From the NCBI GenBank assembly GCA_964016885.1, contig OZ024743.1, forward strand, positions 138,942,001 through 139,006,000: a stretch of DNA of 64,000 bases, read 5' to 3'. The translations under genes were made by a program, and so were the position numbers. The stretch's first letter is position 1; each line of letters starts with the position of its first letter. The notes beneath the pieces were generated by a model. The model did no database searches and was not told where the DNA came from. It saw only the letters and a list, made by a program, of their open reading frames with translations. Positions 1 to 64,000 of the stretch are shown in pieces. The DNA comes from Eledone cirrhosa (taxonomy: Eukaryota).

Positions 1-1654
1 GCTTGGTGTTTGGTGCTTGGTGCTTGGTGTTTGGTGCTTGGTGCCTGGTGCTTGGTGTTTGGTGCTTGGTGCTTGGTGTTTGGTGATTGGTGCTTGGTGT
101 TTGGTGCTTGGTGCTTGGTGCTTGGTGCTTGGTGTTAGGTGTTTGGTGCTTGGTGCTTGGTGTTTGATGTTTGGTGCTTGGTGCCTGGTGTTTGGTGTTT
201 GGTGCTTGGTGCTTGGTGTTAGGTGTTTGGTGCTTGCTGCTTGCTGCTTGGTGTTTGGTGCTTGGTGATTGGTGCTTGGCGTTTTGTGCTTGGTGCTTGG
301 TGTTTGGTGTTTGGTGCTAGGGGCTTGGTGCTTGGTGCTTGGTGTTTGGTGCTTGGTGCTTGCTGTTTGGTGTTTGGTGCTTGGTGCGTGGGACTTAGTG
401 TTTGGTGTTTGGTACTTGGTGTTTGGTGATTGGTGTTTGGGGCTTGGTGTTCGGTGCTTGGTGCTTGGTGCTTGGGGCTTGGTGTTTGGTGTTTGGTGCT
501 TGGTGCTTGGTGTTTGATGTTGGGTCCTTGGTGCTTGGTGTTTGGTCTTTGGTGCTTGGTGTTTGGTGTTTGGTGCTTGGTGCTTGATGTTTGGTGTTTG
601 GTGCTTGGTGCTTGGGGCTTGGTGTTTGGTGCCTGGGGCTTGGTGTTTGGTGTTTGGTGCTTGGTGCTTGGGGCTTGGTGTCTGGTGCTTGGTGCTTGGT
701 GCTTGGTGTTTAGTGTTTGGTGTTTGGTGCTTGGTGTTTGGTGCTTGGTGCTTGGTGCTGGGTGGTTGGTGTTTGGTGCTTGGTGCTTGGTGTTTGGTGC
801 TTGGTGCTTGGTGCTTGTTGTTTGGTGCTTGGTGCTTGGTGCTTGGTCTTTGGTGCTTGGAGTTTGGTGGTTGGTGCTTGGTGCTTGGTGTTTGGTGCCT
901 GGTGCTTGGTGCTTCGTGTTTGGCGTTTGCTGTTTGCTGTTTGCTGTTTGGTGCTTGCTGTTTGGTGTTTGGTGTTTGGTGTTTGGTGTTTGGTGTTTGC
1001 TGTTTGCTGTATGGTGTTTGCTGTTTCGTATTTGGTTTTTGCTGTTTGGTGTTTGGTGTTTGCTGTTTGGTGTTTAGTGTTTGGTGCATGGTCCTTGGTG
1101 TTTGTTGTTTGGTGCTTGGTGCTTGGTGTTTGGTGTTTGGTGTTTGGTGCCTGGTGCTTGGTGTTTGGTGCTTGGTGCTTGGTGCTGGGTGTTTGTTGCT
1201 TGGTGCTTGGTGTTTGGTGCTTGGTGCTTGGTGCTTGGTGCTTGGTGCTTGGTGTTTGGTCCTTGGTGCTTGGTGCTTGGTCTTTGGTGCTTGGGGTTTG
1301 GTGTTTGGTGCTTGGTGCTTGGTGTTTGGTGGTTGGTGGTTGGTGCTTGGTGTTTGGTGTTTGGTGCTTGCTGCTTGGTGCTTGGTGTTTGATGCTTGGT
1401 GCTTGGTGTTTGGTGTTTGGTGCTTGGTGCGTGGGACTTGGTGTTTGGTGCTTGGTGTTTGGTGCTTGGTGTTTGGTGCTTGGTGCTTGGTGCTTGGTGT
1501 TTGGTGTTTGATGTTTGCTGCATGGTGCTTGGTGTTTTGTGTTTGGAGTTTGGTGCTTGGTGTTTGGTGCTTCGATCTTGGTGCTTGGTGTTTGGTGCTT
1601 GGTGCTTGGTGTTTGGTGCTTGGTGCCTGGTGCTTGGTGTTTGGTGCTTGGTGC

Positions 1655-2052
1655 TTGGTGTTTGGTGATTGGTGCTTGGTGTTTGGTGCTTGGTGCTTGG
1701 TGCTTGGTGCTTGGTGTTAGGTGTTTGGTGCTTGATGCTTGGTGTTTGTTGTTTGGTCCTTGGTGCTTGGTGTTTGGTGCTTGGTGCTTGGTGATTGGTG
1801 TTTGGTGTTTGGTGCTTGCTGCTTGCTGCTTGGTGTTTGGTGCTTGGTGATTGGTGCTTGGTGCTTGGTGTTTGGTGATTGGTGCTTGGTGTTTGGTGCT
1901 TGGTGCTTGGTGCTTGGTGCTTGGTGTTAGGTGTTTGGTGCTTGATGCTTGGTGTTTGTTGTTTGGTCCTTGGTGCTTGGTGTTTGGTGCTTGGTGCTTG
2001 GTGATTGGTGTTTGGTGTTTGGTGCTTGCTGCTTGCTGCTTGGTGTTTGGTG
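1655..2052. repeat. 210-bp (30-monomer) tandem duplication
   Basis: Sequence from 1661 (TTTGGTGATT...TTAGGTG...TTGATGC...TTGGTCC) is repeated from 1871. Matching ORF ends at 1720 and 1930 give the same offset of 210. Confidence 0.9.
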
Positions 2053-5000
2053 TTTGGTGCTTGGTGCTTGCTGTTTGTTGTTTGGTGCTTGGTGCGTGGG
2101 ACTTAGTGTTTGATGTTTGGTGCTTGGTGTTTGGTGCTTGGTGTTTGGGGCTTGGTGTTCGGTGCTTGGTGCTTGGTGCTTGGGGCTTGGTGTTTGGTGT
2201 TTGGTGCTAGGTGCTTGGTGTTTGATGTTGGGTCCTTGGTGCTTGGTGTTTGGTGTTTGGTGCTTGGTTTTTGGTGTTTGGTGCTTGGTGCTTGATGTTT
2301 GGTGTTTGGTGCTTGGTGCTTGGGGCTTGGTGTTTGGTGCTTGGTGCTTGGTGTTTGGTGTTTGGTGCTTGGTGCTTGGGGCTTGGTGTTTGGTGCTTGG
2401 TGCTTGGTGCTTGGTGTTTAGTGTTTGGTGTTTGGTGCTTGGTGTTTGGTGCTTGGTGCTTGGTGCTGGGTGGTTGGTGTTTGGTGCTTGGTGCTTGGTG
2501 TTTGGTGCTTGGTGCTTGTTGTTTGGTGCTTGGTGCTTGGTGCTTGGTCTTTGGTGCTTGGAGTTTGGTGGTTGGTGCTTGGTGCTTGGTGTTTGGTGTT
2601 TGGTGTTTGCTGTTTGGTGTTTGCTGTTTGGTGTCTGCTTTTTGGTGTTTGGTGTTTGCTGTATGGTGTTTGCTGTTTCGTATTTGGTTTTTGCTGTTTG
2701 GTGTTTGGTGTTTGCTGTTTGGTGTTTGGTGTTTGGTGTTTGGTGCTTTGTGCTTGGTGCTTGGTGTTTGGCATTTGGTGCTTGGTGCTTGGTGTTTGGT
2801 GCTTGGTGCTTGGTGTTTGGTGTTTGGTGCTTGGTGCCTGGTGCTTGTTGTATGCTGTTTGGTGCTTGGTGCTTGGTGTTTGGTGTTTGCTGCTTGGTGT
2901 CTGGTGTTTGGTGCTTGGTGTTTGGTGTTTGGTGCTTGGTGCTTGGTGCTTGGTATTTGGTGTTTGATGCTTGGTGCTTGGTGATTGTTGTTTTGTGCTG
3001 GGTGCTTGGAGTTTGGTGCTTGGTGCTTGGTGCTTAGTGCTTGGTGTTTGGTGTTTGGTGCTTGGTGTTGGGTGTTTGGTGTTTGATGCTTGGTGTGTGC
3101 TGCTTGGTGCTTGGTGCTTGGTGTTTTGTGTTTGGTGCTTGGTGCTTGGTGCCTGGTGCTTGGTGCTTGGTGCTTGTTGTTTGGTGCTTGGTGCTTGGTG
3201 ATTAGTGTTTGGTGCTTGGTGCTTGGGGTTTGCTGTTTGGTGCTTGGTGCTTGGTGTTTGGTGCTTGGTGCTTGGTGTTTGGTGTTTGGTGCTTGGTGCT
3301 TGGTGTTTGGGTTTTGGTGCTTGGTGCTTGGTGTTTGGTGTTTGGTGCTTGGTGTTTGGTGCTTGGTGTTTGGTGCTGAGTGCTTGGTGTTTGGTGTTTG
3401 ACGCTTGGTGTTTGATGCTTGTTGCTTGGTGCTTGGTGTTTTGTGTTTGGTGTTTGGTGCTTGGTGTATGTACTTGGTGCTTGGTTCTTGGTGTTTGGTG
3501 CTTGGTTCTTGGTGTTTGGTGATTGGTGCTTGGTGCTTGGTGTTTGGTGCTTGGTGCTTGGTGTTTGGTACTTGGTGCTTGGTGTTTGGTTTTTGATGCT
3601 TGGTGTTTGATGCTTGGTGCTTGGTGCTTGGTGTTAAGTGTTTGGGGCTTGGTGCTTGGTGCATGGTGCTTGGTGTTTGGTGCTTGGTGCCTGGTGCTTG
3701 GTGTTTGGTGCTTGGTGCTTGGTGCTTGGTGTTTGGTGCTTGGTATTTGGTGCTTGGTGCTTGGTGTTTGGTGCTTGGTGTTTGGTGCTTGGTGTTCGGT
3801 GCTTGGTGCTTGGTGTTTGGTGCTTGGTGTTAGGTGATTGGTGCTTGGTGCTTGGTGTTTGATGTTTGATCCTTGGTGCTTGATGTTTGGTGCTTGGTGC
3901 TTGGTGTTTGGTGTTTGGTGCTTGCTGCTTGCTGCTTGGTGTTTGGTGCTTGGTGATTGGTGCTTGGTGTTGGGTACTTGGTGCTTGTTGTTTGGTGTTT
4001 GGTGCTAGGTGCTTGGTGCTTGGTGCTTGGGGTTTGGTGCTTGGTGCTTGGTGTTTGGTGTTTGGTGCTTGGTGCTTGGGGCTTGGTGTTTGGTGCTTTG
4101 TGCTTGGTGCTTGTTGTTTGGTGCTTGGTGCTTGGTGCTTCGTGTTTGGTGTTTGGTGTTTGGTGCTTGGTGTTTGGTGCTTGGTGCTTGGTGCTGGGTG
4201 GTTGGTGTTTGGTGCTTGGTGCTTGGTGTTTGGTGCTTGGTGCTTGGTGCTTGTTGTTTGGTGCTTGGTGCTTGGTGCTTGGTCTTTGGTGCTTGGAGTT
4301 TGGTGGTTGGTGCTTGGTGCTTGGTGTTTGGTGTTTGGCATTTGGTGCTTGGTGCTTGGTGTTTGGTGCTTGGTGCTTGGTGTTTGGTGTTTGGTGCTTG
4401 GTGCCTGGTGCTTGTTGTATGCTGTTTGGTGCCTGGTGCTTGGTGTTTGGTGTTTGGTGTTTGGTGCTTGGTGTCTGGTGTTTGGTGTTTGGTGTTTGGT
4501 GCTTGCTGCTTGGTGTTTGGGTTTTGGTGCTTGGTGCTTGGTGTTTGGTGTTTGGTGCTTGGTGTTTGGTGCTTGGTGTTTGGTGCTGAGTGCTTGGTGT
4601 TTTGTGCTTGGTGCGTGGTGCTTGGTGTTTGGTGTTTGGTGCTTGGTGCTTGGTGTTTGGTGTTTGATGCTTGGTGTTTGATGCTTGTTGCTTGGTGCTT
4701 GGTGTTTTGTGTTTGGTGTTTGGTGCTTGGTGTATGTACTTGGTGCTTGGTTCTTGGTGTTTGGTGCTTGGTTCTTGGTGTTTGGTGATTGGTGCTTGGG
4801 GCTTGGTGTTTGGTGCTTGGTGCTTGGTGTTTGGTACTTGGTGCTTGGTGTTTGGTTTTTGATGCTTGGTGTTTGATGCTTGGTGCTTGGTGCTTGGTGT
4901 TAAGTGTTTGGGGCTTGGTGCTTGTTGCATGGTGCTTGGTGTTTGGTGCTTGGTGCCTGGTGCTTGGTGTTTGGTGCTTGGTGCTTGGTGCTTGGTGTTT

Positions 5001-6047
5001 GGTGCTTGGTATTTGGTGCTTGGTGCTTGGTGTTTGGTGCTTGGTGTTTGGTGCTTGGTGTTCGGTGCTTGGTGCTTGGTGTTTGGTGCTTGGTGTTAGG
5101 TGATTGGTGCTTGGTGCTTGGTGTTTTATGTTTGATCCTTGGTGCTTGGTGTTTGGTGCTTGGTGCTTGGTGTTTGGTGTTTGGTGCTTGGTGCCTGGTG
5201 CTTGTTGTATGCTGTTTGGTGCTTGGTGCTTGGTGTTTGGTGTTTGCTGCTTGTTGTCTGGTGTTTGGTGCTTGGTGTTTGGTGTTTGGTGCTTGGTGCT
5301 TGGTGCTTGGTATTTGGTGTTTGGTGCTTGGTGCTTGGTGTTTGTTGTTTGGTGCTGGGTGCTTGGAGTTTGGTTCTTGGTGCTTGGTGCTTAGTGCTTG
5401 GTGTTTGGTGTTTGGTGCTTGGTGTTGGGTGTTTGGTGTTTGATGCTTGGTGTGTGCTGCTTGGTGCTTGGTGCTTGGTGTTTTTTGTTTGGTGCTTGGT
5501 GCTTGGTGCCTGGTGCTTGGTGCTTGGTGCTTGTTGTTTGGTGCTTGGTGCTTGGTGATTAGTGTTTGGTGCTTGGTGCTTGGGGTTTGCTGTTTGGTGC
5601 TTGGTGCTTGGTGTTTGGTGTTTGGTGTTTGGTGCTTGGTGTCTGGTGTTTGGTGTTTGGTGTTTGGTGCTTGGTGCTTGGTGTTTGGGTTTTGGTGCTT
5701 GGTGCTTGGTGTTTGGTGTTTGGTGCTTGGTGTTTGGTGCTTGGTGTTTGGTGCTGAGTGCTTGGTGTTTTGTGCTTGGTGCGTGGTGCTTGGTGTTTGG
5801 TGTTTGGCGCTTGGTGCTTGGTGTCTGGTGTTTGATGCTTGGTGTTTGATGCTTGTTGCTTGGTGCTTGGTGTTTTGTGTTTGGTGTTTCGTGCTTGGTG
5901 TATGTACTTGTTGCTTGGTTCATGGTGTTTGGTGCTTGGTTCTTGGTGTTTGGTGATTGGTGCTTGGTGCTTGGTGTTTGGTGCTTGGTGCTTGGTGTTT
6001 GGTACTTGGTGCTTGGTGTTTGGTTTTTGATGCTTGGTGTTTGATGC

Positions 6048-6180
6048 TTGGTGCTTGGTGCTTGGTGTTTAAGTGTTTGGGGCTTGGTGCTTGGTGTATG
6101 GTGCTTGGTGTTTGGTGCTTGGTGCTTGGTGTTTAAGTGTTTGGGGCTTGGTGCTTGGTGTATGGTGCTTGGTGTTTGGT
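6048..6180. repeat. 64-bp tandem duplication carrying an 8-bp monomer (TTAAGTGT)
   Basis: TTAAGTGT-TTGGGGC-TTGGTGC-TTGGTGT-ATGGTGC occurs at 6069 and 6133. The offset of 64 equals 9x7+1. Confidence 0.9.
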
Positions 6181-8999
6181 GTTTGGTGCTTGGTGCTTGG
6201 TGCTTGGTGTTTGGTGCTTGGTATTTGGTGCTTGGTGCTTGGTGTTTGGTGCTTGGTGTTTGGTGCTTGGTGTTCGGTGCTTGGTGCTTGGTGTTTGGTG
6301 CTTGGTGTTAGGTGATTGGTGCTTGGTGCTTGGTGTTTGATGTTTGATCCTTGGTGCTTGGTGTTTGGTGCTTGGTGCTTGGTGTTTGGTGTTTGGTGCT
6401 TGTTGCTTGCTGCTTGGTGTTTGGTGCTTGGTGATTGGTGCTTGGTGTTGGGTACTTGGTGCTTGTTGTTTGGTGTTTGGTGCTAGGTGCTTGGTGCTTG
6501 GTGCTTGGGGTTTGGTGCTTGGTGCTTGGTGTTTGGTGTTTGGTGCTTGGTGCTTGGGGCTTGGTGTTTGGTGCTTTATGCTTGGTGCTTGGTGTTTGGT
6601 GCTTGGTGCTTGGTGCTTCGTGTTTGGTGTTTGGTGTTTGGTGTTTGGTGTTTGGTGCTTGGTGCTTGGTGCTGGGTGGTTGGTGTTTGGTGCTTGGTGC
6701 TTGGTGTTTGGTGCTTGGTGGTTGGTGCTTGGGGTTTGGTGCTTGGTGCTTGGTGCTTGGTGCTTGGTCTTTGGTGCTTGGTGTTTGGTGTTTGGTGCTT
6801 GGTGCTTGGTGTTTGATGCTTGGTGCTTGGTGATTGGTGTTTGGTGCTTGGTGCTTGGTGCTTGGTGATTAGTGTTTGGTGCTTGGTGCTTGGTGCCTGG
6901 TGCTTGGTGCTTGGTGCTTGTTGTTTGATGCTTGGTGCTTGGTGATTAGTGTTTGGTGCTTGGTGCTTGGGGTTTGGTGTTTGGTGCTTGGGGTTTGGTG
7001 TTTGGTGCTTGGTGCTTGGTGTTTGCTGCTTGGTGCTTGGTGTTTGGTGCTTGGTGCTTTGTGTTTGATGCTTGGTGTTTGGTGCTTGGTGCTTGATGCT
7101 TGGTGCTTGGTGTTAGGTGTTTGGTGCTTGGTCCTTGGTGTTTGATGTTTGGTCCTTGGTGCTTGGTGTTTGGTGTTTGGTGCTTGGTGCTAGGTGTTTT
7201 GTGTGTGGTGCTTGCTGCTTGGTGCTTGGTGTTTTGTGTTAGGAGTTTGGTGCTTGATGTTTGGTGCTTCTGTCTTGGTGCTTGGTGTTTGGTGTTTGGT
7301 GTTTGGTGTATGGTGCTTGGTGCTTGGTGTTTGGTGCTTCGTGCTTGGTGCTTGGTGTTTGGTGCATGGTGCTTGGTGTTTGGGGCTTGGTGCCTGGTGC
7401 TTTGTGTTTGGTGCTAGGTGCTTGGTGCTTGGTGTTAGGCGTTTGGTGCTTGGTGCTTGGTGTTTGATGTTTGGTCCTTGGTGCTTGGTGTTTGGTATTT
7501 GGTGCTTGGTGCTTGGTGTTTGGTGTTTGGTGCTTGCTGCTTGCTGCTTGGTGTTTGGTGCTTGGTGATTGGTGCTTGGTGTTTTGTGCTTGGTGCTTGG
7601 TGTTTGGTGTTTGGTGCTAGGGGCTTGGTGCTTGGTGCTTGGTGTTTGGTGCTTGGTGCTTGGTGTTTGGTGTTTGGTGCTTGGTGCATGGGACTTGGTG
7701 TTTGGTGCTTGGTGTTTGGTGCTTGGTGTTTGGTGCTTGGTGCTTGGTGCTTGGTGGTTGGTGGTTGGTGCTTGGTATTTGGTGATTGGTGCTTGGTGCT
7801 TGGTGTTTGGTGCTTGGTGCTTGGTGTTTGGTACTTGGTGCTTGGTGTTTGGTCTTTGGTGCTTGGTGTTTGGTGCTTGGTGCTTGGTGCTTGGTGCTTG
7901 GTCTTAAGTGTTTGGGGCTTGGTGCTTGGTGCATGGTGCTTGGTGTTTGGTGCTTGGTGCCTGGTGCTTGGTGTTTGTTGCTTGGTGCTTGGTGCTTTGT
8001 GTTTGGTGCTTGGTATTTGGTGCTTGGTGCTTGGTGTTTGGTGCTTGGTGTTTGGTGCTTGGTGTTCGGTGCTTGGTGCTTGGTGTTTGGTATTTGGTGC
8101 TTGGTGCTTGGTGTTTGGTGCTTGGTGCTTGGTGTTTGATGTTTGGTGCTTGGTGCCTGGTGCTTGTTGTATGCTGTTTGGTGCTTGGTGCTTGGTGTTT
8201 GGTGTTTGCTGCTTGGTGTCTGGTGTTTGGTGCTTGGTGTTTGGTGTTTGGTGCTTGGTGCTTGGTGCTTGGTATTTGGTATTTGGTGCTTGGTGCTTGG
8301 TGATTGTTGTTTGGTGCTGGGTGCTTGGAGTTTGGTGCTTGGTGCTTGGTGCTTAGTGCTTGGTGTTTGGTGTTTGGTGCTTGGTGTTGGGTGTTTGGTG
8401 TTTGATGCTTGGTGTGTGCTGCTTGGTGCTTGGTGCTTGGTGTTTTGTGTTTGGTGCTTGGTGCTTGGTGCCTGGTGCTTGGTGCTTGGTGCTTGTTGTT
8501 TGGTGCTTGGTGCTTGGTGATTAGTGTTTGGTGCTTGGTGCTTGGGGTTTGCTGTTTGGTGCTCGGTGCTTGGTGTTTGGTGCTTGGTGCTTGGTGTTTG
8601 GTGTTTGGTGCTTGGTGCTTGGTGTTTGGGTTTTGGTGCTTGGTGCTTGGTGTTTGGTGTTTGGTGCTTGGTGTTTGGTGCTTGGTGTTTGGTGCTGAGT
8701 GCTTGGTGTTTGGTGTTTGACGCTTGGTGTTTGATGCTTGTTGCATGGTGCTTGGTGTTTTGTGTTTGGTGTTTGGTGCTTGGTGTATGTACTTGGTGCT
8801 TGGTTCTTGGTGTTTGGTGCTTGGTTCTTGGCGTTTGGTGATTGGTGCTTGGTGCTTGGTGTTTGGTGCTTGGTGCTTGGTGTTTGGTACTTGGTGCTTG
8901 GTGTTTGGTTTTTGATGATTGGTGTTTGATGCTTGGTGCTTGGTGCTTGGTGTTAAGTGTTTGGGGCTTGGTGCTTGGTGCATGGTGCTTGGTGTTTGG

Positions 9000-11900: not shown

Positions 11901-12060
11901 GGTGCTTGGTGCTTGGTGCTTGGTGTTTGGTGCTTGGTATTTGGTGCTTGGTGCTTGGTGTTTGGTGCTTGGTGTTTGGTGCTTGGTGTTCGGTGCTTGG
12001 TGCTTGGTGTTTGGTGCTTGGTGTTAGGTGATTGGTGCTTGGTGCTTGGTGTTTTATGTT
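9000..12060. repeat. ~1441-bp tandem duplication of module B
   Basis: ATGTAC at 10221 and 11662, TTCGTAT at 9731 and 11172, and matching ORF starts 9276/10717 and 9328/10769 all give offset 1441. The copies differ at several positions. Confidence 0.8.
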
Positions 12061-22700: not shown

Positions 22701-23590
22701 TTTGGTGCTTGGTGTCTGGTGTTTGGTGTTTGGTGTTTGGTGCTTGGTGCTTGGTGTTTGGGTTTTGGTGCTTGGTGCTTGGTGTTTGGTGTTTGGTGTT
22801 TGGTGCTTGGTGTTTGGTGCTTGGTGTTTGGTGCTGAGTGCTTGGTGTTTTGTGCTTGGTGCGTGGTGCTTGGTGTTTGGTGTTTGGTGCTTGGTGCTTG
22901 GTGTTTGGTGTTTGATGCTTGGTGTTTGATGCTTGTTGCTTGGTGCTTGGTGTTTTGTGTTTGGTGTTTGGTGCTTGGTGTATGTACTTGGTGCTTGGTT
23001 CTTGGTGTTTGGTGCTTGGTTCTTGGTGTTTGGTGATTGGTGCTTGGGGCTTGGTGTTTGGTGCTTGGTGCTTGGTGTTTGGTACTTGGTGCTTGGTGTT
23101 TGGTTTTTGATGCTTGGTGTTTGATGCTTGGTGCTTGGTGCTTGGTGTTAAGTGTTTGGGGCTTGGTGCTTGTTGCATGGTGCTTGGTGTTTGGTGCTTG
23201 GTGCCTGGTGCTTGGTGTTTGGTGCTTGGTGCTTGGTGCTTGGTGTTTGGTGCTTGGTATTTGGTGCTTGGTGCTTGGTGTTTGGTGCTTGGTGTTTGGT
23301 GCTTGCTGTTCGGTGCTTGGTGCTTGGTGTTTGGTGCTTGGTGTTAGGTGATTGGTGCTTGGTGCTTGGTGTTTTATGTTTGATCCTTGGTGCTTGGTGT
23401 TTGGTGCTTGGTGCTTGGTGTTTGGTGTTTGGTGCTTGGTGCCTGGTGCTTGTTGTATGCTGTTTGGTGCTTGGTGCTTGGTGTTTGGTGTTTGCTGCTT
23501 GTTGTCTGGTGTTTGGTGCTTGGTGTTTGGTGTTTGGTGCTTGGTGCTTGGTGCTTGGTATTTGGTGTTTGGTGCTTGGTGCTTGGTGTT
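17161..23590. repeat. Further related copy at offset 3302 (~17161-20290 / ~20463-23590)
   Basis: ORF pairs 17252/20554, 17875/21177, 18637/21939, 19617/22919 and 20050/23352 all differ by 3302, with a few substitutions. Confidence 0.85.
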
Positions 23591-53700: not shown

Positions 53701-56360
53701 GGTCTTTGGTGCTTGGTGTTTGGTGTTTGGTGCTTGGTGCTTGGTGTTTGGTGCTTGGGGCTTGGTGTTTGGTGCTTGGTGATTGCTGCTTGGTGTTTGG
53801 TGTTTGGTGCTTGGTGCTTGGTGCTTGGTGATTAGTGTTTGGTGCTTGGTGCTTGGTGCCTTGTGCTTGGTGCTTGGTGCTTGTTGTTTGGTGCTTGGTG
53901 CTTGGTGATTAGTGTTTGGTGCTTGGTGCTTGGTGCCTGGTGCTTGGTGCTTGTTGTTTGGTGCTTGGTGCTTGGTGATTAGTGTTTGGTGCTTGGTGCT
54001 TGGGGCTTGGTGTTTGGTGCTTGGTGCTTGCTGTTTGGTGGTTGCTGTTTAGTGCTTGGTGTTTGGTGCTTGGTGCTTGGTGCTGGGTGGTTGGTGTTTG
54101 GTGCTTGGTGCTTGGTGTTTGGTGCTTGGTGCTTGGTGCTTGTTGTTTGGTGCTTGGTGCTTGGTCTTTGGTGCTTGGTGTTTGGTGTTTGGTGCTTGGT
54201 GCTTGGTGCTTGGTTTTTGGTGCTTGGTGCTTGGTGCTTGGTGTTTGGTGCTTGGTGCTTGGTGCTTGTTGTTTGGTGCTTGGTGCTTGGTCTTTGGTGC
54301 TTGGTGTTTGGTGTTTGGTGCTTGGTGCTTCGTGTTTGGTGCTTAGTGCCTGGTGCTTGGTGTTTGGTGCTTGGTGCTTGGTGTTTGGTGCTTAGTGCTT
54401 GGTGTTTGGTGTTTGGTGCTTGGTGTTTGTTGTTTGGTGTTTGATGCTTGGTTTTTGCTGCTTGGTGCTTGGTGCTTGGTGCTTGGTGCTTGGTGTTCTG
54501 TGTTTGGTGCTTGGTGCTTGGTGCCTGGTGCTTGGTGCTTGGTGCTTGTTGTTTGGTGCTTGGTGCTTGGTGATTAGTCTTTGGTGCTTGGAGCTTGGTG
54601 TTTGGTGTTTGGTGTTTCGTGCTTGGTGCTTGGTGTTTGGTGTTTGGTGCTTGGTGTTTGGTGCTTGGTGCTTTGAGCTTGGTGTTTGGTGCTGGGTGTA
54701 TGGTGTTTGGTGCTTGGTGCTTGGTGCTTGGTGTTTGGTGTTTGGTGCTTGGTACTTGGTGTTTGGTGTTTGATGCTTGGTGTTTGATGCTTGTTGCTTG
54801 GTGCTTGGTGTTTTGTGTTTGGTGTTTGGTGCTTGGTGTATGTACTTGGTGCTTGGTGCTTGGTGTTTGGTGCTTGGTGTTTGGTGTTTGGTGCTTGGTG
54901 TTTGGTACTTGGTGCTTGGTGCTTGGTGTTTGGTGCTTGGTTCTTGGTGTTTGGTGCTTGGTGCTTGGTGCTTGGTGTTTGGTGCTTGGTACTTGGTGTT
55001 TGGTGCTTGGTGTTTGGTGTTTGGTGCTTGGTGTTTGGTACTTGGTGCTTGGTGCTTGGTGTTAAGTGTTTGGTGCTTGGTGCTTGGTGTTTGGTGCTTC
55101 GTGCTTGGTGCTTGGTGTTTGGTGCATGGTGCTTGGTGTTTGGGGCTTGGTGCCTGGTGCTTTCTGTTTGGTGCTAGGTGCTTGGTGCTTGGTCTTTGGT
55201 GTTTGGTGCTTGGTGCTTGGTGCTTGGTGTTTGGTGCTTGTTGCTTGGTGCTTGGTTATTAGTGTTTGGTGCTTGGTGCTTGGGGTTTGGTGTTTGGTGC
55301 TTGGTGCTTGGTGTTTGGTGTTTGCTGTATGGTGTTTGCTGTTTCGTGTTTGGTGTTTGGTGTTTGTTGTTTAATGCTTGGTGCTTGGTGTTTGGTGTTT
55401 GATGTTTGGTGCTTGGTGCTTGGTGTTTGGTGCTTGGTGCTTGGTGCTGGGTGTTTGGTGCTTGGTGCTTGGTGTTTGGTGCTTGGTGCTTGATGCTTGG
55501 TGCTTGGTGTTTGGTCCTTGGTGCTTGGTGCTTGGTCTTTGGTGCTTGGGGTTTGGTGTTTGGTGCTTGGTGCTTGGTGTTTGGTGCTTGGTGCTTGGTG
55601 CTTGGTGTTTGGTGTTTGGTGCTTGCTGCTTGGTGCTTGGTGTTTGGTGCTTGGTGCTTGGTGATTAGTGTTTGGTGCATGGTGCTTGGTGTTTGTTGTT
55701 TGGTGCTTGGTGCTTGGTGTTTGGTGCTTGGTGCTTGCTGTTTGGTGTTTGGTGTTTGGTGCTTGGTGCTTGGTGTTTGGTGTTTGGTGTTTGGTGTTTG
55801 GTGTTTGGTGCTTGGTGCTTGGTGTTTGGTGCTTGGTGTTTGGTGCTTGGTGTATGTACTTGGTGCTTGGTGCTTGGTGTTTGGTGCTTGGTTCTTGGTG
55901 TTTGGTGCTTGGTGCTTTGTACTTGGTGTTTGGTGCTTGGTGCTTGGTCTTTGGTGCTTGGTGTTTGGTGTTTGGTGCTTGGTGCTTGGTGTTTGGTGCT
56001 TGGTGCCTGGTGCTTGGTGTTTGGTGCTTGGTGCTTGGTGTTTGGTGATTGGTGCTTGGTGCTTGGTGCTTAGTGCTTGGTGTTTGGTGTTTGGCGCTTG
56101 GTGTTTGGTGTTTGATGCTTGGTGCTTGGTGCTTGGTGCTTGGTGCATGGTGTTCTGTGTTTGGTGCTTGGTGCTTGGTGCTTGTTGTTTGTTGCTTGGT
56201 GCTTGGTGATTAGTCTTTGATGCTTGGTGCTTGGTATTTGGTGTTTGGTGTTTCGTGCTTGGTGTCTAGTGTTTGGGTTTTGGTGTTTGGTGCTTGGTGC
56301 TTAGTGTTTGGTGTTTGGTGCTTGGTGCTTGGTGTTTGGTGTTTGGTGCTTGGTGTTTGG
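41715..56360. repeat. 7957-bp-period duplication (~41715-48400 / ~49670-56360)
   Basis: Constant offset 7957 for ORFs 42142/50099, 43737/51694, 44945/52902, 46820/54777 and 47711/55668. Shared private 1-bp deletions at 42835/50792 and 44226/52183. Confidence 0.92.
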
Positions 56361-56429
56361 TGCTTGGTGCTTTGTGCTTAGTGTTTGGTGCTGGGTGTAT
56401 GGTGTTTGGTGCTTGGTGCTTGGTGCTTG

Positions 56430-59400
56430 GTGTTTGTTGTTTGGTGCTTGGTACTTGGTGTTTGGTGTTTGATGCTTGGTGTTTGATGCTTGTTGCTTGG
56501 TGCTTGGTGTTTTGTGTTTGGTGTTTGGTGCTTGGTGTATGTACTTGGTGCTTGGTGCTTGGTGTTTGGTGCTTGGTTCTTGGTGTTTGGTGCTTGGTGC
56601 TTGGTGCTTGGTGTTTGGTGCTTGGTGCTTGGTGTTTGGTGCTTGGTGTTTGGTGTTTGGTGCTTGGTGTTTGGTACTTGGTGCTTGGTGCTTGGTGTTA
56701 AGTGTTTGGTGCTTGGTGCTTGGTGTTTGGTGCTTCGTGCTTGGTGCTTGGTGTTTGGTGCATGGTGCTTGGTGTTTGGGGCTTGGTGCCTGGTGCTTTG
56801 TGTTTGGTGCTAGGTGCTTGGTGCTTGGTCTTTGGTGTTTGGTGCTTAGTACTTGGTGCTTGGTGTTTGGTGCTTGGTGCTTGGTGCTTGGTTATTAGTG
56901 TTTGGTGTTTGGTGCTTGGCGCTTGGTGTTTGGTGCTTGGTGCTTGGTGCTTGGTGTTTGGTGTTTGGTGCTTGCTGCTTGGTGCTTGGTGTTTGGTGCT
57001 TGGTGCTTGGTGCTTGGTGTTTGGTGCTTGGTGCTTGCTGTTTGGTGTTTGGTGTTTGGTGCTTGGTGCTTGGTGTTTGGTGTTTGGTGTTTGGTGTTTG
57101 GTGTTTGGTGCTTGGTGCTTGGTGTTTGGTGCTTGGTGTTTGGTGCTTGGTGTATGTACTTGGTGCTTGGTGCTTGGTGTTTGGTGCTTGGTTCTTGGTG
57201 TTTGGTGCTTGGTGCTTGGTGCTTGGTGTTTGGTGCTTGGTGCTTGGTGTTTGGTACTTGGTGCTTGGTGTTTGGTGTTTGGTGCTTGGTGTTTGGTGCT
57301 TGGTGCTTGGTGCTTGGTGTTAAGTGTTTGGTGCTTGGTGCTTCGTGTTTGGTGCTTCGTGCTTGGTGCTTGGTGTTTGGTGCATGGTGCTTGATGTTTG
57401 GGGCTTGGTGCCTGGTGCTTGGTGTTTGGTGCTTGGTCTTTGGTGGTTGGTGTTTGGTGTTTGGTACTTGGTGCTTGGTGTTTGGTGCTTGGTGTTTGGT
57501 GCTTGGTGTTCGGTGCTTGGTGCTTGGTGCTTGGTACTTGGTGTTAGGTTTTTGGTGCTTGGGGCTTGGTGTTTGGTGTTTGGTGCTTGGTGCTTGGTGT
57601 TTGGTGTTTGGTGCTTGGTGTTTGGTGTTTGGTGCTTTGTGCTTGGTGTTTGGTGCTGGGTGTATGGTGTTTGGTGCTTGGTGCTTGGTGCTTGGTGTTT
57701 GGTGTTTGGTGCTTGGTACTTGGTGTTTGGTGTTTGATGCTTGGTGTTTGATGCTTGTTGCTTGGTGCTTGGTGTTTTGTGTTTGGTGTTTGGTGCTTGG
57801 TGTATGTACTTGGTGCTTGGTGCTTGGTGTTTGGTGCTTGGTTCTTGGTGTTTGGTGCTTGGTGCTTGGTGCTTGGTGTTTGGTGCTTGGTGCTTGGTGT
57901 TTGGTGCTTGGTGTTTGGTGTTTGGTGCTTGGTGTTTGGTACTTGATGCTTGGTGCTTGGTGTTAAGTGTTTGGTGCTTGGTGCTTGGTGTTTGGTGCTT
58001 CGTGCTTGGTGCTTGGTGTTTGGTGCATGGTGCTTGGTGTTTGGGGCTTGGTGCCTGGGGCTTTGTGTTTGGTGCTAGGTGCTTGGTGCTTGGTGTTTGG
58101 TGTTTGGTGCTTGGTGCTTGGTGCTTGGTGTTTGGTGCTTGGTGCTTGGTGCTTGGTTATTAGTGTTTGGTGCTTGGTGCTTGGGCTTTGGTGTTTGGTG
58201 CTTGGTGCTTGGTGTTTGGTGTTTGCTGTATGGTGTTTGCTGTTTCGTGGTTGGTGTTTGCTGTTTGGTGTTTAATGCTTGGTGCTTGGTGCTTGGTGTT
58301 TGGTGCTTGGTGCTTGGTGCTTGGTGTTTGGCGTTTGCTCTTTGCTGTTTGGTGTTTGGTGCTTGCTGTTTGGTGTTTGGTGTTTGGTGTTTGGTGTTTG
58401 GTGCTTGCTGTTTGGTGCTTGGTGCTTGGTGTTTGGTGTTTGGTGTTTGGTGCTTGGTGCTTGGTGTTTGGTGGTTGGTGCTTGGTGCTGGGTGTTTGGT
58501 GCTAGGTGCTTGGTGTTTGGTGCTTGGTGCTTGGTGCTTGGTGCTTGGTCTTTGGTGCTTGGTGTTTGGTGCTTGGTGCTTGGTGCTTGGTGCTTGGTGT
58601 TTGGTGCTTGGGGCTTGGTGTTTGGTGCTTGGTGATTGCTGCTTGGTGTTTGGTGTTTGGTGCTTGGTGCTTGGTGCTTGGTGATTAGTGTTTGGTGCTT
58701 GGTGCTTGGTGCCTTGTGCTTGGTGCTTGGTGCTTGTTGTTTGGTGCTTGGTGCTTGGTGATTAGTGTTTGGTGCTTGGTGCTTGGAGCCTGGTGCTTGG
58801 TGCTTGTTGTTTGGTGCTTGGTGCTTGGTGATTAGTGTTTGGTTCTTGGTGCTTGGGGCTTGGTGTTTGGTGCTTGGTGCTTGTTGCTTGCTGTTTGGTG
58901 GTTGCTGTTTGGTGCTTGGTGTTTGGTGCTTGGTGCTTGGTGCTTGGTTTTTGGTGCTTGGTGCTTGGTGCTTGGTGTTTGGTGCTTGGTGCTTGGTGCT
59001 TGTTGTTTGGTGCTTGGTGCTTGGTCTTTGCTGCTTGGTGTTTGGTGCTTGGTGCTTGGTGCTTGGTGTTTGGTGCTTGGGGCCTGGTGCTTGGTGTTTG
59101 GTGCTTGGTGCTTGGTGTTTGCTGATTGGTGCTTGGTGCTTGGTGCTTGGTGCTTAGAGCTTGGTGTTTGGTGTTTGGTGCTTGGTACTTGGTGTTTGGT
59201 GTTTGATGCTTGGTGTTTGATGCTTGTTGCTTGGTGCTTGGTGTTTTGTGTTTAGTGTTTGGTGCTTGGTGTATGTACTTGGTGCTTGGTGCTTGGTGTT
59301 TGGTGCTTGGTTCTTGGTGTTTGGTGCTTGGTGCTTGGTGCTTGGTGTTTGGTGCTTGGTGCTTGGTGTTTGGTGCTTGGTGTTTGGTGTTTGGTGCTTG

Positions 59401-61890
59401 GTGTTTGGTACTTGGTGCTTGGTGCTTGGTGTTAAGTGTTTGGTGCTTGGTGCTTGGTGTTTGGTGCTTCGTGCTTGGTGCTTGGTGTTTGGTGCATGGT
59501 GCTTGGTGTTTGGGGCTTGGTGCCTGGTGCTTTGTGTTTGGTGCTAGGTGCTTGGTGCTTGGTCTTTGGTGTTTGGTGCTTAGTACTTGGTGCTTGGTGT
59601 TTGGTGCTTGGTGCTTGGTGCTTGGTTATTAGTGTTTGGTGTTTGGTGCTTGGCGCTTGGTGTTTGGTGCTTGGTGCTTGGTGCTTGGTGTTTGGTGTTT
59701 GGTGCTTGCTGCTTGGTGCTTGGTGTTTGGTGCTTGGTGCTTGGTGCTTGGTGTTTGGTGCTTGGTGCTTGCTGTTTGGTGTTTGGTGTTTGGTGCTTGG
59801 TGCTTGGTGTTTGGTGTTTGGTGTTTGGTTTTTGGTGTTTGGTGCTTGGTGCTTGGTGTTTGGTGCTTGGTGTTTGGTGCTTGGTGTATGTACTTGGTGC
59901 TTGGTGCTTGGTGTTTGGTGCTTGGTTCTTGGTGTTTGGTGCTTGGTGCTTGGTGCTTGGTGTTTGGTGCTTGGTTCTTGGTGTTTGGTACTTGGTGCTT
60001 GGTGTTTGGTGTTTGGTGCTTGGTGTTTGGTGCTTGGTGCTTGGTGCTTGGTGTTAAGTGTTTGGTGCTTGGTGCTTCGTGTTTGGTGCTTCGTGCTTGG
60101 TGCTTGGTGTTTGGTGCATGGTGCTTGATGTTTGGGGCTTGGTGCCTGGTGCTTGGTGTTTGGTGCTTGGTCTTTGGTGGTTGGTGTTTGGTGTTTGGTG
60201 CTTGGTGCTTGGTGTTTGGTGCTTGGTGTTTGGTGCTTGGTGTTCGGTGCTTGGTGCTTGGTGCTTGGTACTTGGTGTTAGGTTTTTGGTGCTTGGGGCT
60301 TGGTGTTTGGTGTTTGGTGCTTGGTGCTTGGTGTTTGGTGTTTGGTGCTTGGTGTTTGGTGTTTGGTGCTTTGTGCTTGGTGTTTGGTGCTGGGTGTATG
60401 GTGTTTGGTGCTTGGTGCTTGGTGCTTGGTGTTTGGTGTTTGGTGCTTGGTACTTGGTGTTTGGTGTTTGATGCTTGGTGTTTGATGCTTGTTGCTTGGT
60501 GCTTGGTGTTTTGTGTTTGGTGTTTGGTGCTTGATGTATGTACTTGGTGCTTGGTGCTTGGTGTTTGGTGCTTGGTTCTTGGTGTTTGGTGCTTGGTGCT
60601 TGGTGCTTGGTGTTTGGTGCTTGGTGCTTGGTGTTTGGTGCTTGGTGTTTGGTGTTTGGTGCTTGGTGTTTGGTACTTGGTGCTTGGTGCTTGGTGTTAA
60701 GTGTTTGGTGCTTGGTGCTTGGTGTTTGGTGCTTCGTGCTTGGTGCTTGGTGTTTGGTGCATGGTGCTTGGTGTTTGGGGCTTGGTGCCTGGGGCTTTGT
60801 GTTTGGTGCTAGGTGCTTGGTGCTTGGTCTTTGGTGTTTGGTGCTTGGTGCTTGGTGCTTGGTGTTTGGTGCTTGGTGCTTGGTGCTTGGTTATTAGTGT
60901 TTGGTGCTTGATGCTTGGGGTTTGGTGTTTGGTGCTTGGTGCTTGGTGTTTGGTGTTTGCTGTATGGTGTTTGCTGTTTCGTGGTTGGTGTTTGCTGTTT
61001 GGTGCTTGGTGCTTGGTGCTTGGTGGTTGGTGTTTGGTGCTTGGTGCTTGGTGCTTGGTGTTTGGCGTTTGCTCTTTGCTGTTTGGTGTTTGGTGCTTGC
61101 TGTTTGGTGTTTGGTGTTTGGTGTTTGGTGTTTGGTGCTTGCTGTTTAGTGCTTGGTGCTTGGTGTTTGGTGTTTGGTGTTTGGTGCTTGGTGCTTGGTG
61201 TTTGGTGGTTGGTGCTTGGTGCTGGGTGTTTGGTGCTAGGTGCTTGGTGTTTGGTGCTTGGTGCTTGGTGCTTGGTGCTTGGTCTTTGGTGCTTGGTGTT
61301 TGGTGCTTGGTGCTTGGTGCTTGGTGTTTGGTGCTTGGGGCTTGGTGTTTGGTGCTTGGTGATTGCTGCTTGGTGTTTGGTGTTTGGTGCTTGGTGCTTG
61401 GTGCTTGGTGATTAGTGTTTGGTGCTTGGTGCTTGGTGCCTTGTGCTTGGTGCTTGGTGCTTGTTGTTTGGTGCTTGGTGCTTGGTGATTAGTGTTTGGT
61501 GCTTGGTGCTTGGTGCCTGGTGCTTGGTGCTTGTTGTTTGGTGCTTGGTGCTTGGTGATTAGTGTTTGGTGCTTGGTGCTTGGGGCTTGGTGTTTGGTGC
61601 TTGGTGCTTGGTGCTTGCTGTTTGGTGGTTGCTGTTTGGTGCTTGGTGTTTGGTGCTTGGTGCTTGGTGCTTGGTTTTTGGTGCTTGGTGCTTGGTGCTT
61701 GGTGTTTGGTGCTTGGTGCTTGGTGCTTGTTGTTTGGTGCTTGGTGCTTGGTCTTTGCTGCTTGGTGTTTGGTGTTTGGTGCTTGGTGCTTGGTGTTTGG
61801 TGCTTGGTGCCTGGTGCTTGGTGTTTGGTGCTTGGTGCTTGGTGTTTGCTGATTGGTGCTTGGTGCTTGGTGCTTGGTGCTTAGTGCTTG
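56430..61890. repeat. 2734-bp tandem duplication (~56430-59160 / ~59165-61890)
   Basis: Offset 2734 for ORFs 56476/59210, 56702/59436, 57324/60058 and 57967/60701, and for the GCTCTTTGC landmark at 58337/61071. The offset becomes 2727 near the end, a one-monomer difference. Confidence 0.9.
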
Positions 61891-64000
61891 GTGTTTGGTG
61901 TTTGGTGCTTGGTGTTTGGTGTTTGGTGTTTGATGCTTGGTTTTTGCTGCTTGGTGCTTGGTGCTTGGTGCTTGGTGTTCTGTGTTTGGTGCTTGGTGCT
62001 TGGTGCCTGGTGCTTGGTGCTTGGTGCTTGTTGTTTGGTGCTTGGTGCTTGGTGATTAGTCTTTGGTGCTTGGTGCTTGGTGTTTGGTGTTTGGTGATTG
62101 GTGCTTGGTGTTTGGTGTTTGGTGCTTGGTGTTTGGTGCTTGGTGCTTGGTGCTTGGTGTTTGGTGCTGGGTGTATGGTGTTTGGTGCTTGGTGTCTAGT
62201 GTTTGGGTTTTGGTGTTTGGTGCTTGGTGCTTAGTGTTTGGTGTTTGGTGATTGGTGCTTGGTGTTTGGTGTTTGGTGCTTGGTGTTTGGTGCTTGGTGC
62301 TTTGAGCTTGGTGTTTGGTGCTGGGTGTATGGTGTTTGGTGCTTGGTGCTTGGTGCTTGGTGTTTGGTGTTTGGTGCTTGGTACTTGGTGTTTGGTGTTT
62401 GATGCTTGGTGTTTGATGCTTGTTGCTTGGTGCTTGGTGTTTTGTGTTTGGTGTTTGGTGCTTGGTGTATGTACTTGGTGCTTGGTGCTTGGTGTTTGGT
62501 GCTTGGTTCTTGGTGTTTGGTGCTTGGTGCTTGGTCTTTGGTGCTTGATGTTTGGTGTTTGGTGCTTGGTGTTTGGTACTTGGTGCTTGGTGCTTGGTGT
62601 TTGGTGCTTGGTTCTTGGTTTTTGGTGCTTGGTGCTTGGTGCTTGGTGTTTGGTGCTTGGTACTTGGTGTTTGGTGCTTGGTGTTTGGTGTTTGGTGCTT
62701 GGTGTTTGGTACTTGGTGCTTGGTGCTTGGTGTTAAGTGTTTGGTGCTTGGTGTTTGGTGCTTCGTGCTTGGTGCTTGGTGTTTGGTGCATGGTGCTTGG
62801 TGTTTGGGGCTTGGTGCCTGGTGCTTTCTGTTTGGTGCTAGGTGCTTGGTGCTTGGTCTTTGGTGTTTGGTGCTTGGTGCTTGGTGCTTGGTGTTTGGTG
62901 CTTGGTGCTTGGTGCTTGGTAATTAGTGTTTGGTGCTTGGTGCTTGGGGTTTGGTGTTTGGTGCTTGGTGCTTGGTGTTTGGTGCTTGGTGCTTGGTGCT
63001 TGGTAATTAGTGTTTGGTGCTTGGTGTTTGGTGTTTGCTGTATGGTGTTTGCTGTTTCGTGTTTGGTGTTTGGTGTTTGGTGTTTAATGCTTGGTGCTTG
63101 GTGTTTGGTGTTTGGTGTTTGGTGCTTGGTGCTTGGTGTTTGGTGCTTGGTGCTTGGTGCTGGGTGTTTGGTGCTTGGTGCTTGGTGTTTGGTGCTTGGT
63201 GCTTGATGCTTGGTGCTTGGTGTTTGGTCCTTGGTGCTTGGTGCTTGGTCTTTGGTGCTTGGGGTTTGGTGTTTGGTGCTTGGTGCTTGGTGTTTGGTGC
63301 TTGGTGCTTGGTGCTTGGTGCTTGGTGTTTGGTGCTTGCTGCTTGGTGCTTGGTGTTTGGTGCTTGGTGCTTGGTGATTAGTGTTTGGTGCATGGTGCTT
63401 GGTGTTTGTTGTTTGGTGCTTGGTGCTTGGTGTTTGGTGCTTGGTGCTTGCTGTTTGGTGTTTGGTGTTTGGTGCTTGGTGCTTGGTGTTTGGTGTTTGG
63501 TGTTTGGTGCTTGGTGCTTGGTGTTTGGTACTTGGTGCTTGGTGCTTGGTGTTAAGTGTTTGGTGCTTGGTGCTTGGTGTTTGGTGCTTCGTGCTTGGTG
63601 CTTGGTGTTTGGTGCATGGTGCTTGGTGTTTGGGGCTTGGTGCCTGGGGCTTTGTGTTTGGTGCTAGGTGCTTGGTGCTTGGTGTTTGGTGTTTGGTGCT
63701 TGGTGCTCGGTGCTTGGTGTTTGGTGCTTGATGCTTGGTGCTTGGTTATTAGTGTTTGGTGCTTGGTGCTTGGGGTTTGGTGTTTGGTGCTTGGTGCTTG
63801 GTGTTTGGTGTTTGCTGTATGGTGTTTGCTGTTTCGTGTTTGGTGTTTGCTGTTTGGTGTTTAATGCTTGGTGCTTGGTGCTTGGTGTTTGGTGCTTGGT
63901 GCTTGGTGCTTGGTGTTTGGCGTTTGCTCTTTGCTGTTTGGTGTTTGGTGCTTGCTGTTTGGTGTTTGGTGTTTGGTGTTTGGTGTTTGGTGCTTGCTGT

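What the first reader, a model, noticed from the sequence alone, without database searches (positions are those of the whole stretch)
1..64000. A 7-bp microsatellite organised as nested multi-kilobase higher-order repeats: candidate (peri)centromeric satellite
Seen: a heptamer array of at least 64 kb whose rare variant monomers and C/T order are copied in 1.2-8.5-kb blocks, giving at least four levels of periodicity (7 bp, ~1.3 kb, ~5 kb, recent 1.4-8.5-kb duplications). Established: HOR hierarchies are well known for 150-180-bp centromeric monomers (primate alpha satellite, Arabidopsis CEN178), while simple heptamer satellites (Drosophila virilis AAACTAC family) are usually described as simple arrays. 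Inference: this is a simple repeat that has become a complex satellite, now amplified in kb-scale units, and may be the centromeric or pericentromeric DNA of its host. I do not recognise TTGGTGY as a named satellite family, but I could not search for it.
Basis: partly seen in the sequence, partly recalled or inferred. Interest (0 to 1): 0.75.

Follow-up and report, generated by a model that had tools for sequence, protein, structure and literature searches.

The report
Giant heptamer satellite, megabase-scale duplications
The window is a small part of a 14.6-million-base block of one seven-letter DNA repeat at a single place in a likely octopus-type genome, where the two ends of one flipped segment recur nine to eleven times, so the block likely grew by repeated million-base duplications and is likely ordinary dense repeat DNA rather than the general centromere.

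Summary
Real, and larger than reported. The window is pure TTGGTG(C/T) (9,150 monomers); variant patterns recur in kilobase blocks far beyond shuffles (317 segments vs 0). There is no fixed higher-order unit: spacings run 0.6-2.9 kb and '~5 kb' is a variable module order. The window lies in one 14.6-Mb array on contig C4 (379 Mb) of a likely octopod genome; 116 of 116 rare-probe hits fall there, with only small outliers on C2 and C3. New level: both breakpoints of one ~190-kb inversion recur 9 and 11 times, about 1.3 Mb apart, at ~0.6% divergence, so the array likely grew by about ten megabase-scale duplications, then drifted by whole-monomer indels and kilobase tandem duplications. The centromere idea is untested and disfavoured: single locus, 22 interspersed subfamilies, no homogeneous core, and a 196-bp repeat shared by C1, C2, C4 and C18 is the better candidate. 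It works like human HSat2/3 nested tandem repeats. The scan noted like arrays, and a copied inversion, on other DNA of this genome (unreviewed notes). The motif was not found in print; one atlas supplement was closed.

The parts
1..64000 (+). Uninterrupted TTGGTG(C/T) heptamer array, 9,150 monomers, one orientation (G000:C4:138,942,001-139,006,000). It is 0.4% of an array spanning C4 about 128,822,858-143,422,346 (14.6 Mb). Outside the window: inversion junction A at C4:138,931,079-138,931,106 (11 kb upstream; 10 homologous copies plus one deleted derivative along the array) and junction B at C4:138,740,406-138,740,435 (9 homologous copies)
   Evidence: array 11, 41, 45, 62, 63; junctions 39, 47, 48, 54, 55, 56, 61, 85
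1..3400 (+). End of a subfamily domain that starts at inversion junction A upstream; lacks the 6-bp deletion monomer
3468..37484 (+). Left domain: 23 units headed by the 6-bp deletion monomer, module order A (about 1.44 kb) - B (1.17 kb) - C (0.7-2.9 kb), cycles of variable length
37485..64000 (+). Right domain: 24 units of 0.6-1.9 kb with other marker monomers; same subfamily sampled at C4 131.75 and 141.25 Mb
14587..19734 (+). Perfect tandem duplication, 2 x 2,574 bp, 0 mismatches (youngest event, or an assembly duplicate)
17161..23589 (+). Near-tandem duplication, lag 3,302 bp, 0.29% divergence
9234..12101 (+). Tandem duplication, lag 1,441 bp
41744..56370 (+). Largest duplication in the window, lag 7,957 bp, 6,670 bp collinear, 0.18% divergence

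Best explanation
This is a single-locus, 14.6-Mb satellite block that likely grew by passive, repair- and recombination-driven copying at three scales and likely forms a chromosome-specific heterochromatin block rather than the general centromere. Shown: heptamer array, its size and single location, kilobase duplications, 22 interspersed subfamilies, one pair of inversion breakpoints repeated 9 and 11 times at about 0.6% divergence, mostly whole-monomer indels between the copies. Inferred order: (1) a G/T-rich heptamer expanded and gathered about 5% point variants; (2) kilobase tandem duplications and deletions froze runs of variants into local subfamilies; (3) one segment of about 190 kb flipped, likely by a template switch at 1-2 bp of microhomology; (4) a block of roughly 0.4-1.9 Mb holding that flip was copied about ten times in a short period, at least once as a large inverted copy; (5) the copies have since drifted by in-phase indels and new kilobase duplications, which gives the apparent 'HOR levels'. 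The levels would thus be a record of duplication history, not a working unit.
For: Size and place: edges read directly; 52 of 53 spaced 8-kb samples are pure satellite, no N; 784,444 three-monomer matches imply 14.7 Mb (14.0-15.5) genome-wide; 116 of 116 hits of two rare probes lie in C4 128.9-143.3 Mb. Megabase level: junction A at 10 sites with the same two, mutually unrelated arms, a deleted derivative at 131.693 Mb, junction B at 9 sites; 9 of 9 B lie 157-256 kb from an A-type junction; same-strand A spacing 0.43-1.85 Mb, mean 1.35; subfamily 0 lies within 300 kb before B in 10 of 14 samples against 3.8 expected (1 of 20,000 permutations). A and B must alternate, so only duplications longer than the flipped segment can copy both. 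Copies differ by 6.1-6.8 substitutions per kb on average, range 2.2-11.1, with little nesting; the closest pair is the same at A and at B (130.2-130.4 with the inverted 134.5-134.8 Mb), and a third junction and a rare probe mirror it. 62 of 71 lineage-specific indels are multiples of 7 bp, median 28 bp. Against a general centromere role: see location above; a 196-bp repeat with at least 14,736 copies sits on C1, C2, C4 (212-247 Mb) and C18. Precedent: HSat2/3 arrays of 13-28 Mb with kilobase nested repeats that vary along the array and many inversion breakpoints, while CENP-A is almost confined to alpha satellite (10.1101/2021.07.12.452052, passages).
Against: No chromatin data: heterochromatic and non-centromeric status are inferred. 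It is the only array of this repeat found on C4, very large, almost free of insertions in the samples, young and recently duplicated, and at 34-38% of the contig length, all compatible with a centromere; human CENP-A tends to sit on recently expanded repeats and macro-repeats occur in active arrays. The 196-bp rival forms at least four blocks on C4 and was not seen on C3 by the one rare probe used, whose list was cut at 100 of 240, so it is no clean one-per-chromosome marker. Two A copies (134.432, 142.890) have no detected B, and several strand switches (near 137.0-137.5 and 139.6-140.2 Mb) have no detected junction, so the macro-unit is irregular and the map incomplete. Only about 3% of the array was sampled evenly. 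Microhomology could be fixed for 4 of 7 junction types only (1, 1, 2 and at least 1 bp; chance of at least 1 bp is 18%). One assembly, no raw long reads: stacking of the two haplotypes could inflate the copy number up to twofold.
Confidence: 0.65

Rival explanations
1. The array is the functional, chromosome-specific centromere of giant chromosome C4 in a polytypic genome, and its burst of megabase duplications reflects kinetochore-linked expansion or drive.
For: 14.6 Mb, 52 of 53 samples free of other sequence; recent duplications at all scales; submedian position; octopods have localized centromeric C-bands (PMC6160780, passages); 5-12-bp satellites occur at Drosophila centromeres (PMC8122249, passage); ditypic and polytypic genomes exist; the genome has other single-locus megabase arrays (unreviewed notes).
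Against: Not shared between chromosomes; no homogeneous core or mirror layering, 22 subfamilies interleaved, 15 of 52 samples reversed; a multi-chromosome 196-bp repeat lies on the same contig 69-104 Mb away; no hairpin tendency (z 0.52; the 196-bp repeat shows none either); octopods also have interstitial C-bands.
Confidence: 0.15
2. The array marks a former centromere or a fusion seam of the giant chromosome and swelled after losing its role.
For: Four contigs of 379-443 Mb beside many of 45-135 Mb suggest fusions (inference); the small C2 arrays lie next to an internal telomere-repeat tract and 6.6 Mb from a 196-bp block.
Against: No telomere-repeat tract in the flank samples of the C4 array; the edges abut a tRNA-Arg cluster and ordinary AT-rich DNA; synteny was not tested.
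Confidence: 0.08
3. The megabase repetition is largely an assembly product (both haplotypes stacked, or contigs joined in arbitrary order and orientation).
For: Repeat arrays are hard to assemble; one 2,574-bp duplicate is perfect; 8 of 71 indels are 1 more than a multiple of 7, seven of them single bases; no raw reads were laid.
Against: No N in any array sample; strand switches are base-exact, repeated junctions, not gaps; 9-11 copies each with private substitutions and indels, 0.2-1.1% apart, whereas haplotype stacking gives two copies and should pair them all; only one clearly closer pair was seen.
Confidence: 0.08
4. Long-range similarity arose only from local kilobase indels splitting older blocks, without megabase duplications, as simulated for Arabidopsis centromeres.
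For: Shown in simulation for CEN178 arrays (10.1101/2025.06.02.657473, section 11); kilobase tandem duplications are present here.
Against: Local duplications cannot copy two breakpoints 157-256 kb apart in strict alternation, nor make a mirrored copy of at least 450 kb.
Confidence: 0.03

Closest known systems
Human HSat2/HSat3 nested tandem repeats (10.1101/2021.07.12.452052; passages read)
   Same: Simple short ancestral monomer; arrays of 13-28 Mb; kilobase units that change along the array; many inversion breakpoints (HSat3 on chr9).
   Different: Unrelated sequence and host; here the 7-bp phase is still kept (9,092 of 9,150 monomers are 7 bp); almost all at one locus; most detected strand switches are copies of one inversion. 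HSat2/3 are known to be pericentromeric; that is unknown here.
Heterogeneous higher-order repeats of Arabidopsis CEN178 (10.1101/2025.06.02.657473: abstract, passages, section 11; 10.64898/2026.09.17.752431: abstract, passages, section 6)
   Same: Irregular block duplications without fixed period; indels that keep the monomer phase.
   Different: 178-bp monomer on all chromosomes and centromeric; reported indels are kilobase-sized, whereas most indels detected here are 1-10 heptamers; no megabase duplication needed there.
Alpha-satellite macro-repeats of human chr12, 6 and X (passages)
   Same: Large-scale duplications of hundreds of kb or more inside one array.
   Different: Built on regimented alpha-satellite HORs, two macro-repeats on chr12; here about ten irregular units on a 7-bp monomer.
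Tribolium madens macro-dyad symmetries with conserved inversion sites (PMC13081366; passages)
   Same: Identical inversion junctions repeated through megabase satellite regions.
   Different: Thousands of sites, dyads of kb to 75 kb, on all chromosomes; here 9-11 copies, a flipped segment of about 190 kb, arms of unrelated subfamilies, one locus.
Drosophila short satellites (5-12 bp at D. melanogaster centromeres, PMC8122249 passage; D. virilis heptamers recalled, no call)
   Same: Very short monomer in very large arrays.
   Different: No sequence relation shown; megabase organisation not compared here.

Membership tests
HSat2/3-like nested tandem repeat satellite (architecture class) | Short simple ancestral monomer in a multi-megabase array | tested here: met
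   7-bp monomer, 14.6 Mb
HSat2/3-like nested tandem repeat satellite (architecture class) | Kilobase repeat units that vary along the array | tested here: met
HSat2/3-like nested tandem repeat satellite (architecture class) | Pericentromeric heterochromatin without CENP-A | not testable with these tools
   no chromatin or cytological data
HSat2/HSat3 (sequence family) | Derived from (CATTC)n | tested here: not met
   monomer is TTGGTG(C/T); analogy only
Regimented higher-order repeat (alpha-satellite type) | Fixed n-mer repeated in tandem over long range | tested here: not met
   over the whole window no spacing above 6% (6-monomer words) or 15% (20-monomer words) of the spectrum; local regularity in a few samples only, e.g. 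1.93 kb at 135.6 Mb
Heterogeneous HOR (Arabidopsis type) | Paired blocks of monomers more alike than chance, irregular spacing | tested here: met
   317 segments against 0 in shuffles
Centromeric satellite (atlas criteria) | Long contiguous array | tested here: met
   52 of 53 samples pure
Centromeric satellite (atlas criteria) | Shared by several chromosomes | tested here: not met
   116 of 116 rare-probe hits on C4; only small arrays on C2 and C3
Centromeric satellite (atlas criteria) | High homogenisation | tested here: inconclusive
   macro-copies 0.6% apart, but 22 interleaved subfamilies and no central core
Centromeric satellite (atlas criteria) | Gene-poor, transposon-rich surroundings | not tested
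   a few flank samples only
Centromeric satellite (functional) | CENP-A occupancy and primary constriction | not testable with these tools
   no run labelled as ChIP among the 23 listed; no cytology
Tribolium-type macro-dyad symmetry | Conserved inversion sites | tested here: met
   junctions A and B
Tribolium-type macro-dyad symmetry | Thousands of kilobase-scale dyads on all chromosomes | tested here: not met
   26 junction sites in the C4 array, plus one stray pattern match each on C7 and C12, not followed up

The most novel reading that the evidence does not exclude
A fused giant octopod chromosome uses a private 7-bp satellite as its centromere, and that array grew about tenfold in one recent burst of megabase duplications that can be counted and ordered from a single copied inversion: the first sequence-level cephalopod centromere and a direct record of centromere-drive-like expansion.
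Probability: 0.12. Interest if true: 0.75.

Novelty: new member of a known kind. Interest (0 to 1): 0.4.

Why it matters
As a family it is one more short-monomer satellite with nested duplications, in a genome that holds many. Its value is as a natural record: rare monomers give 7-bp resolution, and one inversion pair tags about ten megabase copies, so indel sizes, substitution load and duplication order can be read in one array. It shows that 'higher-order' patterns arise in a heptamer array with no sign of a fixed unit, so they are no evidence of a centromere. It also gives two concrete probes (this heptamer, and the 196-bp repeat) for locating octopod centromeres, which my search did not find described at sequence level.

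Tried and rejected
Fixed ~1.3-kb and ~5-kb periods: rejected. My own first idea that the breaks between megabase copies are kilobase events: rejected, most are small in-phase indels (the method takes the smallest shift and cannot see events over 3.5 kb, so larger events are undercounted, and the 157-256 kb spread of the flipped segment shows that they exist). Protein coding: the longest open frame, 899 aa, is shorter than in 5 of 5 monomer shuffles (1,255-1,392 aa). Hairpin-forming monomer: no. Telomere: chromosome tips carry TTAGGG (4 of 15 contig starts) and the array is internal. The 28-bp satellite at C4 127.0 Mb as shared centromere repeat: only 341 exact copies. A strict pattern for forward-to-reverse junctions found 0; a looser one found them. 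Origin of the C3 piece from C4: a 37-base probe hit C4 twice, about chance level by a rough estimate, no verdict. Pfam gave 0 of 3 hits for the element around the C3 piece. Rfam on four flanks: 0. Motif in print: 0 papers for two sets of rotations.
Full report
What is in the window. All 64,000 bases are TTGGTG(C/T) in one orientation: 9,150 monomers, 9,092 of them 7 bp, 111 types, 4.8% of bases off consensus. Variant patterns are copied: 317 ungapped segments of at least 40 monomers against none in 3 shuffles, and 87% of monomers in duplicated blocks of 100 or more. The 11 long blocks measured differ by 0-0.83%. There is no fixed unit. A 6-bp deletion monomer heads 47 units of 602-2,884 bp; the spacing spectrum peaks at 2.6, 3.3 and 8.0 kb with no peak above 6% for 6-monomer words, and 4.5-5.6 kb holds 7%.

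Host and extent. The window is G000:C4:138,942,001-139,006,000. The assembly has four contigs of 379-443 Mb; the next eleven measure 45-135 Mb; 4 of 15 contig starts are TTAGGG telomere. A reverse-transcriptase frame 2 Mb from the array has its best species-named matches in Argonauta hians (71% identity over 62% of the query), so the host is likely an octopod; this rests on one retrotransposon. The array runs from about 128,822,858 to 143,422,346. Of 53 spaced 8-kb samples (15, 38) 52 are pure satellite without N; one, at 142.45 Mb, is an AT-rich island of under 100 kb. 784,444 three-monomer matches divided by the sampled density give 14.7 Mb (14.0-15.5) for the whole assembly, and 116 of 116 hits of two rare probes lie in this array. 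Outliers are small: two arrays on C2 near 250.9 and 251.1 Mb, and 1.1 kb on C3.

Large-scale structure. The 52 samples fall into 22 clusters by shared variant words, interleaved, 15 reversed, with no homogeneous centre; 31% of all matches are reversed. The window's subfamily recurs at 130.45, 133.2, 134.5 (inverted), 136.19 and 137.9 Mb at about 99.5% over 1-2 kb stretches. A strand switch lies 11 kb upstream of the window. The same junction (A) occurs at 10 sites with the same two unrelated arms (one arm of the 141.214 copy departs after 50 bases), and a deleted form at 131.693 Mb. The opposite junction (B) occurs at 9 sites, each 157-256 kb from an A-type site; same-strand A sites are 0.43-1.85 Mb apart. 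One subfamily lies just before B in 10 of 14 samples against 3.8 expected. Copies differ by 6.1 (A) and 6.8 (B) substitutions per kb, range 2.2-11.1. The closest pair is the same at both junctions and marks an inverted copy of about 130.02-130.47 Mb at 134.47-134.98 Mb. Between copies there is one indel per 4.4 substitutions; 62 of 71 lineage-specific indels are multiples of 7 bp, median 28 bp, largest 630 bp, 47 deletions and 24 insertions, by a method that favours small shifts. Against a tidy picture: two A sites lack a detected B, six further junction sites of four other types exist, and some switches have no detected junction.

How it likely works. Shown steps are the array, the duplications, the repeated junction pair and the in-phase indels. 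Inferred: variants were frozen into subfamilies by kilobase duplications; one segment of about 190 kb flipped; a block holding it was copied about ten times in a short period; drift continues. A and B must alternate, so local indels alone, which can produce long-range similarity in simulated Arabidopsis arrays (10.1101/2025.06.02.657473, section 11 read), cannot explain this. Where parent sequence was found, junctions share 1, 1, 2 and at least 1 base (4 of 7 types; chance of at least 1 is 18%): weak support for template switching. No age in years is given; no rate for this host is at hand.

Centromere or not. Untested. Against: single locus; patchwork; a 196-bp repeat, taken from an unreviewed note and checked here, has at least 14,736 copies and blocks on C1, C2, C4 (212, 233.5, 234.2, 247.4 Mb) and C18 (lists cut, so the range is a minimum). 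For: size, purity, youth and position; short satellites occur at Drosophila centromeres (PMC8122249, passage); octopods show centromeric and also interstitial C-bands (PMC6160780, passages); molluscs have CENP-A (PMC12210499, passages). The window has 193 CpG, so a methylation dip would be hard to read. I put a centromere role for C4 at about 0.15.

Known kinds and novelty. It works like human HSat2/3 nested tandem repeats, which come from a pentamer, reach 13-28 Mb, change period along the array and hold many inversions (10.1101/2021.07.12.452052, passages); it is not of that sequence family. Macro-repeats are known in alpha satellite, heterogeneous HORs are common across eukaryotes (10.64898/2026.09.17.752431, section 6 read), and conserved inversion sites are known in Tribolium (PMC13081366, passages). 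The motif was not found in print in two searches; a search on cephalopod, centromere and satellite listed 19 papers, none on cephalopod satellites by title; the centromere atlas has no 'octopus' or 'cephalopod' in its main text, but its supplement of 263 families could not be seen and could hold this repeat. D. virilis heptamers are recalled, not checked. Unreviewed notes of this scan describe other megabase short-monomer arrays and a copied inversion cassette on other DNA of this genome. Verdict: real; an apparently undescribed member of a known kind, with a clear megabase duplication record; interest 0.4.

Noticed in passing
L061, L062 (C4 212.23-212.27 Mb); C1 279.7, C2 209.8 and 244.1-244.3, C4 233.5, 234.2 and 247.4, C18 6.8 Mb: A 196/227-bp satellite with at least 14,736 copies on at least four contigs; the better general centromere candidate.
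   Followed up: partly
L039:3520-6777 (C3 about 4.19 Mb): A 1.1-kb piece of the heptamer sits between two outward-pointing, 5'-truncated copies of a likely Penelope-like retroelement (590-bp inverted repeat, 95%); Pfam gave no hit, the Atlas gave HTH_animal clusters at 0.97; the Penelope label rests on recalled motifs. Possible capture of satellite DNA at a retroelement inversion point.
   Followed up: partly
L037, L038, L040, L078-L080 (C2 250.86-251.18 Mb): Two small heptamer arrays (L038 and L040 share 85-91% of variant words, a duplication about 228 kb apart) embedded in a 25/27-bp satellite and next to an internal telomere-repeat tract.
   Followed up: partly
L069:489-2760 (C4 128.82 Mb): Two tRNA-Arg(TCG) genes, and by eye a tRNA-like copy, within 2.4 kb of the array's left edge; a similar 60-base stretch lies 33 kb beyond the right edge.
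   Followed up: no
L119 (C4 142.45 Mb): AT-rich island inside the array: degenerate 11-12-bp repeat in both orientations with a unit of about 6 kb repeated.
   Followed up: no
L002 (C4 126.98-127.01 Mb): 28-bp satellite, 341 exact copies of the unit, 1.8 Mb left of the array.
   Followed up: partly
L022, L023, L025, L026, L035, L036: Many contig ends carry different short-unit satellites (18, 19, 31, 26, 22, 49 bp).
   Followed up: no
L020:101-7700 (C4 145.5 Mb): Two copies of a non-LTR retrotransposon (endonuclease and RT domains) in opposite orientation.
   Followed up: partly
window 1-64000: The C/T order is non-random: runs are depleted (CCCC 0.25x) and TCCT enriched (1.9x), a possible trace of an old 21-28-bp super-unit.
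   Followed up: no
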